A DNA stretch of 64,000 nucleotides from Alphaproteobacteria bacterium (GTDB lineage: Bacteria > Pseudomonadota > Alphaproteobacteria > JAUXUR01). Location: the NCBI GenBank assembly GCA_030696155.1, contig JAUYSY010000029.1, forward strand, positions 4,059-68,058, read 5' to 3'. Each line of letters starts with the position of its first letter. Within the stretch, counting starts at the first letter, position 1. Shown piece by piece: positions 28,150 through 28,455 of this stretch. The notes below the pieces were generated by a model. The model was not told the origin of the DNA. It was given only the letters and a program-made list of their open reading frames with translations, and made no database searches. Made by a program: the position numbers and the translations under genes.

Positions 28150-28455
28150 AAATTATGTAATTTCCCAGTTTCCTACGCCCCGCGACCATATCATTACCCA
28201 TAAGTATACTAAGATATTGATAATTAATATCTTTGTTTGCCCCACCTCCTACGTCCCGCGGCTTGTCCGCGGGATCCAGAAAGTAAATAAAGAAGATCTC
28301 ATTGTTCAATTTATACAATGTTAACTTTAGGGAAGATCGTCTGGATCCTGCGATCAAGCCGCGGGACGTAGGAAGGGGGTGGTGTTTATACTTATGGATA
28401 ATGATATGGAAGCAGGGGCGTGGGAGGCGCAGATGTTAAAATTGCATTCATCTTG
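28150..28455. repeat. Family-C MITE-like element, copy 2, apparently one element nested inside another
   Basis: Inner arms cctacgtcccgcggcttgtccgcgggatcc ... ggatcctgcgatcaagccgcgggacgtagg lie inside outer arms cctacgccccgcgacca...gcaggggcgtgggaggcgcagatgttaaaatt. Confidence 0.65.

What the first reader, a model, noticed from the sequence alone, without database searches (positions are those of the whole stretch)
28150..28455. Family-C GC-rich palindromic MITE with a nested insertion (element within element)
Five loci (9752..9947, 28150..28455, 36450..36612, 53355..53486 and the mini-copy 57489..57560) share arms of the type cctacgccccgcggcttgaccgcggg(atcc) and a conserved right flank (g)cagatgtt(c/t)aaatt. 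These arms stand out as ~70% GC against an AT-rich genome. At 28150..28455 an inner copy with both arms sits between the arms of a second, outer copy. That implies recent or ongoing mobility and preferential self-targeting. The copies also create spurious ORFs (9760..9963, 28085..28357, 36439..36675).
Basis: seen in the sequence. Interest (0 to 1): 0.5.

Follow-up and report, generated by a model that had tools for sequence, protein, structure and literature searches.

The report
Nested palindromic MITE with REP-hairpin core
This is a small non-coding jumping element, one copy carrying a second palindromic unit inside it, in an uncultured AT-rich alphaproteobacterium; it has inserted recently, but it is a new example of a known kind rather than something new.

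Summary
Four loci carry GC-rich inverted arms (core CCCGCGGCTTGWCCGCGGG: 7 hits against 0 expected). 28157-28464 really is a palindrome inside a palindrome. The interpretation needs correcting.

- **Ends and target duplications.** The elements end in 12-nt inverted repeats (GTAAYTCCCCAG). They are flanked by perfect 8-bp target duplications: AATTATTG around 9763-9940 and AAAATTAT around 28157-28464. This signature fits the IS66 family, not IS630/Tc1 or IS5.
- **Arms.** Each arm is itself a hairpin of the known CGTC-4/Rickettsia RPE-4 REP class, here with a CTAC tag. The 32-nt arm recurs identically in Legionella. The arms sit as tag-outward (HH) dimers, much like Coxiella QMITE2.
- **Recent mobility.** A sister genome (96-97% identical) has clean empty sites for the 9.8-kb and 36.5-kb copies. 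It lacks the 53.4-kb copy. It shares the right half of the nested copy, so that copy is older.
- **Inner unit.** It belongs to a different subfamily and has no terminal repeats. It is flanked only by TGTTT, so how it got there is unresolved. Self-targeting rests on this single case.
- **Transposase.** None lies in the window.

Verdict: a new member of a known kind, of moderate-to-low interest.

The parts
9755..9762 (.). Copy A, left 8-bp target-site duplication AATTATTG
   Evidence: Perfect repeat of 9941-9948, abutting the terminal inverted repeat. The sister genome has a single TATTATTG at the empty site.
9763..9940 (+). Copy A, complete 178-bp element. Terminal repeats are GTAACTCCCCAG and rc GTAATTCCCCAG. 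The left arm is degenerate (9783-9814) and the right REP arm is intact (9865-9896). The asymmetric right segment is at 9897-9928.
   Evidence: Absent from sister genome L121, whose fzlA-cytochrome b561 spacer is 56 bp.
9941..9948 (.). Copy A, right target-site duplication AATTATTG
28149..28156 (.). Copy B, left target-site duplication AAAATTAT
   Evidence: Perfect repeat of 28465-28472
28157..28464 (+). Copy B, 308-bp composite (outer element plus lodged inner unit). Components, left to right: left terminal repeat GTAATTTCCCAG (28157-28168); left frame (28172-28184); AT-rich outer stems (28185-28209 and 28387-28409); central hairpin (28211-28233); right frame (28410-28427); asymmetric segment CGCAGATGTTAAAATT... 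(28428-28452); decayed right terminal repeat TTGAATAATTAC (28453-28464).
   Evidence: With 28239-28387 removed, 159 bp remain, and they align to copies A and C with z = 17.6 and 12.5. The right half is present in sister genome L126. The more distant relative L123 lacks the whole thing.
28239..28382 (+). Inner unit of B, 144 bp. It has a CCCC...GGGG frame and REP arms 28248-28279 (CCTACGTCCCGCGGCTTGTCCGCGGGATCCAG) and 28341-28372, separated by a 61-nt spacer. It has no GTAA terminal repeats. TGTTT lies on both sides (28234-28238 and 28383-28387).
   Evidence: (I12). The subfamily has a CTTGT loop and an ATCCAG tail. The arm is 100% identical over 32 nt to Legionella bozemanae and other Legionellales loci.
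28465..28472 (.). Copy B, right target-site duplication AAAATTAT
   Evidence: Also present in the sister genome.
36449..36606 (+). Copy C, about 158 bp. Both REP arms are intact (36465-36495 and 36538-36569). The asymmetric segment is at 36570-36595 and the right terminal repeat CTGGGGAGTTG at 36596-36606. The left terminal repeat is mutated (TTGTACCCCCAG). Flanks are A-rich 8-mers (36441-36448 and 36607-36614), so the register is ambiguous.
   Evidence: The sister genome has an empty site with a single AAAAAATA. A Logan contig of the same strain breaks inside this copy.
53354..53494 (+). Copy D. REP arms are at 53368-53399 and 53449-53480, with a degenerate flank motif at 53481-53494. No recognisable right terminal repeat or target duplication.
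   Evidence: The sister genome has an unrelated 68-bp spacer here, containing a terminator-like hairpin.
57499..57552 (+). 'Mini' copy: outer frame CCCCTCCTACG...CGCAGGAGGGG plus AGATTCTTAAATTT, with no REP hairpins. Probably an internally deleted relic.
   Evidence: It lies at the edge of a 2.7-kb segment that the sister genome lacks.

Best explanation
'Family C' is a non-autonomous transposable element (MITE) of about 156-178 bp.

Anatomy.
- Its true ends are 12-nt terminal inverted repeats, 5'-GTAAYTCCCCAG...CTGGGGAATTAC-3'.
- Insertion duplicates 8 bp of target.
- The interior is a long imperfect palindrome made of two inverted REP-type hairpins: 5'-CTAC-NN-CCCGCGG-CTTGW-CCGCGGG-RT-CCA(K)-3'. 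The tags face outward (an 'HH dimer') around a variable spacer.
- A 30-nt asymmetric segment (AGATGTTYAAATT...) lies on the right side only.

Mobilisation (inferred). It is moved in trans by a DDE transposase encoded elsewhere in the genome. The GTAA termini and 8-bp duplication point most likely to the IS66 family (ISBst12-like).

Activity (shown). The family has been active recently. Two copies are clean insertions relative to a 96-97% identical sister genome, and a third copy is also missing there.

The locus under review. 28157-28464 is the oldest copy.
- It is a 159-bp element whose own REP hairpins have decayed into an AT-rich stem.
- It carries a 144-bp palindromic unit of a different subfamily in its right inner arm. 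That unit's arms are identical to a Legionellales arm type.
- The unit has no terminal repeats. It therefore probably arrived by a REP-like or recombinational route rather than by the 8-bp-duplicating transposase (inferred).
For: Transposon signature (shown).
- Perfect 8-bp direct repeats abut the terminal repeats of copies A and B. The chance of 8/8 identity at a fixed offset in this window is about 5e-5 each.
- The terminal repeats match each other 11/12 in copy A.

Empty sites (shown).
- Sister genome GCA_030680745.1 aligns at 96-98% on both sides of copies A and C.
- It holds one copy of the target 8-mer in place of the element.
- Copy D is also missing there.
- No arm, frame or terminal-repeat motif occurs in the about 46 kb of syntenic sister DNA, except at site B.

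Non-autonomous (shown). All 48 ORFs scanned against Pfam or NCBIfam are either housekeeping genes or have no family hit. None is a transposase.

IS66 link (from the literature).
- IS66 inverted repeats start with GTAAGCG and make 8-bp direct repeats (PMC11946415).
- ISDge4, of the ISBst12 group, has TIR GTAACTGCTCAGCA and an 8-bp direct repeat. The element here has GTAACTCCCCAGCC (PMC12898284).

REP nature of the arms (shown).
- Each arm folds alone at -11 to -12 kcal/mol.
- In other genomes, 215 arms form 53 HH, 6 TT and 6 HT pairs.
- Stem position 5 covaries: C-G 120, T-A 25, mixed 4.
- The description matches CGTC-4/RPE-4 of Di Nocera 2013: 5-nt loop, CCA tail, HH dimers. The R. conorii in-frame peptides WIPWSNHGMT and AIPRLDLGI back-translate to the same hairpin.

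Nesting (shown).
- Two concentric sets of family frames are present.
- The whole stretch folds as one nested hairpin, z = -14.
- The outer element minus the inner unit is 159 bp, the family's size, and its similarity to A and C is significant (z = 12.5-17.6).
- The right half of the composite is shared with the sister genome, so the nesting predates the split.
Against: - No transposase with matching ends was found. The whole genome could not be searched. The IS66 assignment rests on 4 terminal bases, the duplication length and one published TIR.
- The right terminal repeat of B matches the left at only 7/12.
- Copy C's left end is mutated and its target repeat is low-complexity.
- Copy D and the mini have no ends at all.
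- The interior of the outer B element is not significantly similar to other copies (z at most 1.8). Its family membership rests on ends and size.
- The inner unit has no 8-bp duplication. Its TGTTT repeat (5 bp, boundaries chosen by eye) could be chance.
- The sister contig ends inside the inner spacer, so the left half of the nest is unconfirmed there.
- The family-specific pattern found no true copy in JGI metagenomes. There was one GC-rich chance hit. The census beyond this lineage is therefore empty.
Confidence: 0.7

Rival explanations
1. The elements are REPINs: REP doublets copied by a REP-associated tyrosine (Y1/HUH) transposase acting on single-stranded hairpins. The apparent terminal repeats and 8-bp repeats are incidental.
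For: The arms are self-folding, tagged hairpins in inverted doublets with compensatory stem changes, which is the REP/REPIN anatomy. A CTAC/GTAG tetranucleotide abuts each hairpin. The inner unit of B and the mini lack terminal repeats and duplications.
Against: Y1 transposition makes no target duplication, yet A and B have perfect 8-bp duplications exactly at GTAA...TTAC ends, and the sister genome has single-copy empty sites. The tag polarity is reversed relative to canonical REPs: GTAG lies 3' of its hairpin here (read directly from the sequence). No Y1 transposase lies in the window. Di Nocera 2013 found no dedicated transposase for the CGTC class.
Confidence: 0.1
2. 28157-28464 is not an insertion of one element into another. 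It is a single element whose palindrome grew from within, by hairpin-templated duplication, template switching or gene conversion between copies. The two concentric sets of frames would then be an internal duplication.
For: The inner unit has no terminal repeats and no 8-bp duplication. Both outer arms carry the same replacement (ATATCATTA), so the arms are being homogenised. Long palindromes are prone to such events (general knowledge).
Against: The inner arms belong to a different subfamily from the outer frames and from A, C and D: CTTGT loop and ATCCAG tail against CTTGA and GTCCAT. A local duplication would not produce that. Removing the inner unit with one TGTTT leaves a neat 159-bp family-sized hairpin.
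Confidence: 0.15
3. The repeats are maintained for a host function, such as bidirectional terminators, mRNA-stabilising hairpins or protein-binding sites. They would then be selected rather than selfish mobile DNA.
For: All copies are intergenic. D and the mini lie between convergent genes, and at site D the sister genome has a classical terminator hairpin instead. REPs are reported to act as RNA elements (Di Nocera 2013).
Against: Presence/absence between near-identical genomes, together with target duplications, shows insertion rather than conservation. No terminator-like site was found at B. B sits between divergent promoters and A sits inside a 56-bp spacer. Function and mobility are not mutually exclusive.
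Confidence: 0.05
4. One reading: a MITE derived from an IS630/Tc1 or IS5-like insertion sequence.
For: Small size, inverted repeats and many copies.
Against: IS630/Tc1 elements duplicate TA, and most IS5-group elements duplicate 3-4 bp (my recollection of ISfinder, not checked here). Here the duplications are 8 bp (AATTATTG, AAAATTAT) and the ends are GTAA.
Confidence: 0.03

Closest known systems
Coxiella burnetii QMITE2 (Wachter et al. 2018, PMC5896051; review PMC10969869)
   Same: Same architecture. The full-length form is 150-190 bp with TIRs and variable 7-11-bp direct repeats around a strongly folding core that contains a tagged REP. It coexists with shorter TIR-less, DR-less versions that 'are essentially REP elements'. 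It is intergenic and creates small ORF overlaps.
   Different: Sequence homology could not be tested, because the QMITE2 sequence is not in the held text. QMITE2 TIRs are 23-29 bp, against 12 clear nucleotides here. The QMITE2 REP is placed by Di Nocera in the GTAG families, not the CGTC-4-like hairpin seen here. Targeting by IS1111 was not seen here.
CGTC-4 REPs of Di Nocera et al. 2013 (PMC3733652), equal to Rickettsia palindromic element RPE-4
   Same: Same hairpin: stem (AT)CCCGCGG, 5-nt loop CTTGA, tail CCA, predominantly HH dimers, found in Rickettsia and Wolbachia. Rickettsia loci carry TGTCAT-CCCGTGGCTTGACCACGGG-ATCCAG.
   Different: The tag is CTAC, not CGTC/TGTC/CCTC. The first two stem positions are GT/GC/TT, not AT. 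In Rickettsia these units sit singly inside genes, in frame. Here they are dimers inside a TIR/TSD shell and all are intergenic. In this sample the CTAC-tag variant is otherwise seen only in Legionella, Legionellales, Coxiellaceae and unclassified gammaproteobacterial MAGs. That paper does not mention those taxa.
IS66-family insertion sequences, ISBst12 group (e.g. ISDge4; PMC12898284, PMC11946415)
   Same: Ends begin with 5'-GTAA and the target duplication is 8 bp. ISDge4 TIR GTAACTGCTCAGCA resembles GTAACTCCCCAGCC here.
   Different: No transposase gene is present. The relationship is inferred from the ends only.
REPIN/RAYT systems (GTAG REPs of enterobacteria and pseudomonads)
   Same: Inverted doublets of tagged hairpins that fold into one long hairpin, with many dispersed copies.
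   Different: The tag polarity is opposite. Target duplications are present. No RAYT was found.

Membership tests
Prokaryotic MITE (non-autonomous TIR/TSD element) | Small size (about 100-400 bp) with no transposase gene | tested here: met
   156-308 bp. Only spurious ORFs of 45-90 aa run through the repeats. No transposase family appears among the 48 ORFs scanned.
Prokaryotic MITE (non-autonomous TIR/TSD element) | Terminal inverted repeats | tested here: met
   GTAACTCCCCAG against rc GTAATTCCCCAG in A (11/12). B matches 7/12 and C is partial. D and the mini have none.
Prokaryotic MITE (non-autonomous TIR/TSD element) | Target-site duplication, with an empty site in a relative | tested here: met
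   Perfect 8-bp duplications at A and B. Single-copy targets at the empty A and C sites of GCA_030680745.1.
Prokaryotic MITE (non-autonomous TIR/TSD element) | A cognate autonomous IS with the same ends in the genome | not testable with these tools
   Only 64 kb of the 150-kb contig is available. The terminal repeat is absent from the 119 loci fetched at that point, which did not yet include the sister-genome contigs. The metagenome scan gave only a chance hit.
IS66 family (as source of the ends) | Inverted repeats starting with 5'-GTAA and an 8-bp direct repeat | tested here: met
   compared with PMC11946415 and PMC12898284.
IS66 family (as source of the ends) | An IS66-type DDE transposase that recognises these ends | not testable with these tools
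   No transposase in the window. The genome is not searchable here.
CGTC-4 REP / Rickettsia RPE-4 | GC-rich stem, 5-nt loop and CCA tail | tested here: met
   CCCGCGG-CTTGW-CCGCGGG-RT-CCA, against the description and the peptides.
CGTC-4 REP / Rickettsia RPE-4 | Terminal tag CGTC (variants TGTC, CCTC) followed by AT as the first stem pairs | tested here: not met
   The tag is CTAC, followed by GT, GC, TC or TT in all window arms. The window arms are therefore filed as a CTAC-tag variant, not as CGTC-4 proper.
CGTC-4 REP / Rickettsia RPE-4 | Predominantly HH (tag-outward) dimers | tested here: met
   All four window loci are HH. Other genomes show 53 HH, 6 TT and 6 HT pairs.
Rickettsia palindromic elements (RPE) in the original sense | In-frame insertion into protein-coding genes | tested here: not met
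   All five loci are intergenic.
GTAG REP / REPIN-RAYT | GTAG at the 5' foot of the hairpin | tested here: not met
   The strand reads 5'-CTAC-hairpin and hairpin-GTAG-3', the opposite polarity.
GTAG REP / REPIN-RAYT | An associated RAYT (Y1 transposase) gene flanked by the REPs | tested here: inconclusive
   None in the window. The rest of the genome is not available.
GTAG REP / REPIN-RAYT | No target-site duplication | tested here: not met
   Full-length copies have 8-bp duplications. The inner unit of B has none, which is compatible with this route for that unit only.
Coxiella QMITE2 | 150-190 bp with a 7-11-bp variable direct repeat, TIRs and a REP-containing core, plus short TIR-less versions | tested here: met
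   156-178 bp, 8-bp direct repeat, REP-dimer core. TIR-less units are the inner B unit and the mini, compared.
Coxiella QMITE2 | Nucleotide homology to QMITE2/CbsR16 | not tested
   The sequence is not in the held paper or its supplements. Plasmid BLAST found nothing.

The most novel reading that the evidence does not exclude
The 30-nt tagged hairpin and its inverted dimer may form an independently mobile module that crosses bacterial classes. The arm is 100% identical over 32 nt between this alphaproteobacterium and Legionella, and the CTAC-tag variant is otherwise seen only in Legionellales-type genomes. This module would home into the centres of existing palindromes, including other MITEs, by a hairpin-directed mechanism that leaves no terminal repeats or 8-bp duplication. 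On this reading the nested locus is a snapshot of two mobility systems using one piece of DNA: a DDE-driven shell and a hairpin-driven core.
Probability: 0.15. Interest if true: 0.6.

Novelty: new member of a known kind. Interest (0 to 1): 0.33.

Why it matters
- **A bacterial MITE caught in the act.** Two near-identical uncultured genomes differ by clean insertions with target duplications. One older copy holds a second unit.
- **Annotation.** The elements break assemblies: a Logan contig ends inside copy C and the sister contig ends inside copy B. They also create false ORFs and false N-terminal extensions. Annotators of AT-rich symbiont-like genomes should mask them.
- **Shared hairpin.** The same tagged hairpin occurs in Rickettsia, Legionella, Coxiellaceae and this lineage. 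That adds a data point to the open question of what moves CGTC-type REPs, for which no transposase is known.

None of this overturns current understanding.

Tried and rejected
- **Rfam.** At gathering threshold the window holds only three tRNAs. A permissive scan of the locus gave only sub-threshold plant and animal miRNA-precursor hits, which are artefacts of a long hairpin.
- **Literature search by sequence.** Searching for the arm sequence as text found no paper.
- **Metagenome scan.** The family-specific pattern GTAAYTYCCCAG-N(2-9)-CTACGYCCCGC gave one hit in a 58% GC contig with no other similarity. I treated it as chance.
- **Plasmids.** BLAST of the composite against plasmids found no match.
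- **Terminal repeat in fetched loci.** No match in any of the 119 loci fetched at that point.
- **Promoter and terminator scan at B.** Nothing above shuffled expectation inside the element. The predicted promoters of both flanking genes lie outside it.
- **Terminal repeats for the inner unit.** I tried to give the inner unit its own terminal repeats and 8-bp duplication by aligning it to full-length ends. The left end GTTTGCCCCAC matches 7/11. The right side leaves no room, because the outer stem starts 15 nt after the frame. Rejected.
- **Interior homology of the outer B element.** I tried to show its AT-rich interior is homologous to other copies' interiors. Not significant, z at most 1.8.
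- **Exact-protein look-ups.** Those for TrmJ and RsmB failed. The source contig itself was not retrievable, so no census beyond the window was possible.

Full report

Yes.
- The GC-rich core CCCGYGGCTTGWCCRCGGG (up to 3 mismatches) occurs seven times in the window against none in 100 shuffles. It occurs as inverted pairs at 28.25/28.35 kb, 36.47/36.54 kb and 53.38/53.46 kb, and as a single intact arm at 9.87 kb. That arm's partner is degenerate.
- The flank motif GGGGCAGATGTTYAAATT is found three times against 0.24 expected.
- The fifth locus (57499-57552) shares only the outer frame and a loose copy of the flank motif.
- The window is 27-42% GC.
- At 28.2-28.5 kb there are two concentric sets of family sequences. 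The stretch folds into one nested hairpin of -84 kcal/mol, z = -14.

**2. What the 'arms' are.**

Each arm is itself a small hairpin: 5'-CTAC-NN-CCCGCGG-CTTGW-CCGCGGG-RT-CCA(K). It folds alone at -11 to -12 kcal/mol.

By record title they break down as follows:

| Group | Stretches |
|---|---|
| Legionella/Legionellales | 34 |
| Coxiellaceae | 7 |
| Rickettsia/Rickettsiales | 10 |
| Other alphaproteobacteria | 14 |
| Gammaproteobacterial MAGs (30 unclassified, plus one Oleiphilaceae and one Sedimenticolaceae) | 32 |
| Delta/Myxococcota | 5 |
| Unclassified | 10 |
| GC-rich, likely chance hits | 6 |

Further features of these arms in other genomes:
- The flanks are conserved as YGTCRT or CTACGT on one side and ATCCAG on the other.
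- Stem position 5 covaries: C-G 120, T-A 25, mixed 4.
- 215 arms form 53 tag-outward (HH), 6 TT and 6 HT pairs, with spacers of 7-121 nt.

This is the CGTC-type REP class of Di Nocera et al. 2013. Its features are a 9-bp stem beginning with AT, a 5-nt loop, a CCA tail, mostly HH dimers, and CGTC-4 = Rickettsia RPE-4. The R. conorii in-frame CGTC-4 peptides WIPWSNHGMT and AIPRLDLGI in their Additional file 3 back-translate to this very hairpin.

The window's arms differ in the tag: CTAC instead of CGTC/TGTC. In my sample that variant otherwise occurs only in Legionella, Legionellales, Coxiellaceae and unclassified gammaproteobacterial MAGs. The inner left arm at 28248-28279 is 100% identical over 32 nt to arms in L. 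bozemanae and others.

**3. What the whole element is.**

Outside the arms lie the real ends.
- Copy A is 9763-9940 (178 bp). It is bounded by GTAACTCCCCAG and CTGGGGAATTAC and flanked by a perfect AATTATTG on both sides.
- The composite B is 28157-28464 (308 bp). It is bounded by GTAATTTCCCAG and TTGAATAATTAC and flanked by a perfect AAAATTAT on both sides.
- The frequency of 8/8 identity at those offsets anywhere in the window is about 5e-5.
- Copy C (36449-36606) has a good right end and A-rich flanks. D and the mini have no recognisable ends.

So the family is a classical TIR/TSD MITE whose core is a REP dimer, with a 30-nt asymmetric segment on the right only. All five copies lie in the same orientation and all are intergenic.

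GTAA termini plus an 8-bp duplication are the stated hallmarks of the IS66 family (PMC11946415). The ISBst12-group element ISDge4 has TIR GTAACTGCTCAGCA with an 8-bp direct repeat (PMC12898284), close to GTAACTCCCCAGCC here. No transposase is encoded in the window, so mobilisation in trans is inferred, not shown.

**4. Evidence of recent movement.**

The window comes from an NCBI MAG labelled 'Alphaproteobacteria bacterium' (proteins MDP35320xx, 150.5-kb contig). Its genes are typical alphaproteobacterial housekeeping genes (FzlA, TrcR, DUF1465). A sister MAG, GCA_030680745.1, is 94-98% identical over most of the syntenic DNA.

| Site | Sister genome GCA_030680745.1 |
|---|---|
| A | The fzlA-cytochrome b561 spacer is 56 bp. 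It contains one TATTATTG where the window has AATTATTG-element-AATTATTG. |
| C | A single AAAAAATA. |
| D | The 291-bp window spacer is replaced by 68 unrelated bp containing a terminator-like hairpin. |
| B | The sister contig carries the inner right arm, the outer right stem, frame, terminal repeat and AAAATTAT almost base for base. It then ends inside the inner spacer. |

No other family motif occurs in about 46 kb of sister DNA. A more distant relative (TrmJ 89% identical) has only 188 bp between the same two genes and no element.

Hence A, C and D are recent gains in the window's lineage. B, the nested one, is the oldest.

**5. The nested locus.**

Removing 28239-28387 (the inner unit plus one TGTTT) leaves 159 bp.
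- That is the size of copies A and C.
- It aligns to them with z = 17.6 and 12.5 through its ends.
- It forms a tidy hairpin with its own small central stem-loop.
- Its interior is not significantly similar to other copies (z at most 1.8). Its REP hairpins are gone: the arm folds at only -2 kcal/mol.

The inner unit (144 bp) has intact hairpins of another subfamily. It has no GTAA ends, none of the asymmetric segment, and only TGTTT on each side.

Two concentric sets of frames, from different subfamilies, are most simply explained by one unit having entered another. How it entered is open. The choices are a REP-like or recombinational route (my preference) or decay of a once-complete element. 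The second is unlikely, because the outer stem leaves no room for a right end. One case cannot establish 'preferential self-targeting'. Di Nocera et al. do note REP dimers lodged inside longer palindromes in other species, and most dimers in the fetched loci also sit inside longer, genome-specific inverted repeats.

**6. Comparison and verdict.**

The closest described element is Coxiella QMITE2. It is 150-190 bp, has 7-11-bp variable direct repeats, TIRs and a REP-bearing core, and coexists with short TIR-less REP-like versions. Homology could not be tested.
- The arms work like, and nearly are, CGTC-4/RPE-4 REPs. They fail the tag criterion, so I file them as a CTAC-tag variant.
- It is not a REPIN/RAYT system. 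The tag polarity is reversed, duplications are present, and no RAYT was found.
- It is not an RPE in the original in-gene sense.

Overall this is a new member of a known kind. It is well documented by an unusually clean pair of genomes and carries a modest open question about the mobility of the hairpin core.

Confidence that it is a TIR/TSD MITE with recent activity is high. Confidence in IS66-family mobilisation is about even. Confidence that the inner unit is an insertion is moderate.

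Noticed in passing
window 3294-3571, 46829-47103, 49932-50118 (inverted); 15545-15708 and 58871-59034; 24687-24817 and 54013-54143; 35093-35335 and 36234-36344; 6105-6290; 53225-53326: At least four further MITE-like repeat families (82-92% identical copies) occupy intergenic spacers, so this genome is riddled with small repeats. The copy at 46829-47103 has ends ATACCGGACAA...TTGCCCGGTAGAT and what looks like a 12-bp direct repeat ATGCATTTCAAT on both sides. Several families also have copies at non-orthologous sites in the sister genome.
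   Followed up: partly
window about 11425 and about 34291; L121 6995-7274: Gene order differs from the sister genome. There, the fzlA side (window 11425) is joined to the trcR side (window 34291), so the 23-kb segment between them lies elsewhere. The junction in the sister genome carries a copy of the 15545-15708 repeat family. This suggests repeat-mediated rearrangement.
   Followed up: no
window 54803-57546: A 2.7-kb segment holds an 842-aa ORF with no Pfam or NCBIfam match, with internal 48-nt repeats at 55383-55540. It ends at the 'mini' repeat and is absent from the sister genome. The sister has a 160-bp spacer there, carrying a copy of the 35093/36234 repeat family.
   Followed up: partly
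window 649-1452 (inside the DEAD-box helicase gene 370-2667, minus strand): The C-terminal part of the helicase is built of 108-123-nt tandem repeats. The sister genome's gene is 751 aa against 765, so the array length varies.
   Followed up: no
window 9736-9856: The longest ORF for cytochrome b561 starts at a TTG inside copy A and adds 40 spurious residues. The sister genome's gene is 187 aa. Copy A sits 27 bp upstream of the likely true start, inside what is a 56-bp fzlA-cytochrome b561 spacer in the sister genome.
   Followed up: partly
window 36747-36762; L121 4413-4597: The sister genome has 185 extra bp here. They are part of a histidine-rich 103-aa ORF upstream of the RND adaptor gene, which the window lacks.
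   Followed up: no
L127 9428-9495 (sister genome, site D): Where the window has copy D between two convergent genes, the sister genome has a textbook terminator hairpin, AACCCCCGCTAAAACGGGGGTT followed by a T-run. Its left stem resembles the TAACCCCCC at the left edge of copy D.
   Followed up: no
window 32122-32313 (inside ORF 31395-33404): Two 96-nt tandem repeats (76% identical) lie inside a 669-aa ORF with no family match. The related contig L123 has a 649-aa version.
   Followed up: no
L016, L084, L019, L033, L078 (Legionella and gammaproteobacterial MAG loci): In other genomes the same REP dimers sit inside longer, genome-specific inverted repeats, for example ...GCCATTAAGTAAAAGTCATCGCTCCTTG-dimer-.... 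The universal hairpin is therefore combined with different outer shells in different lineages.
   Followed up: partly
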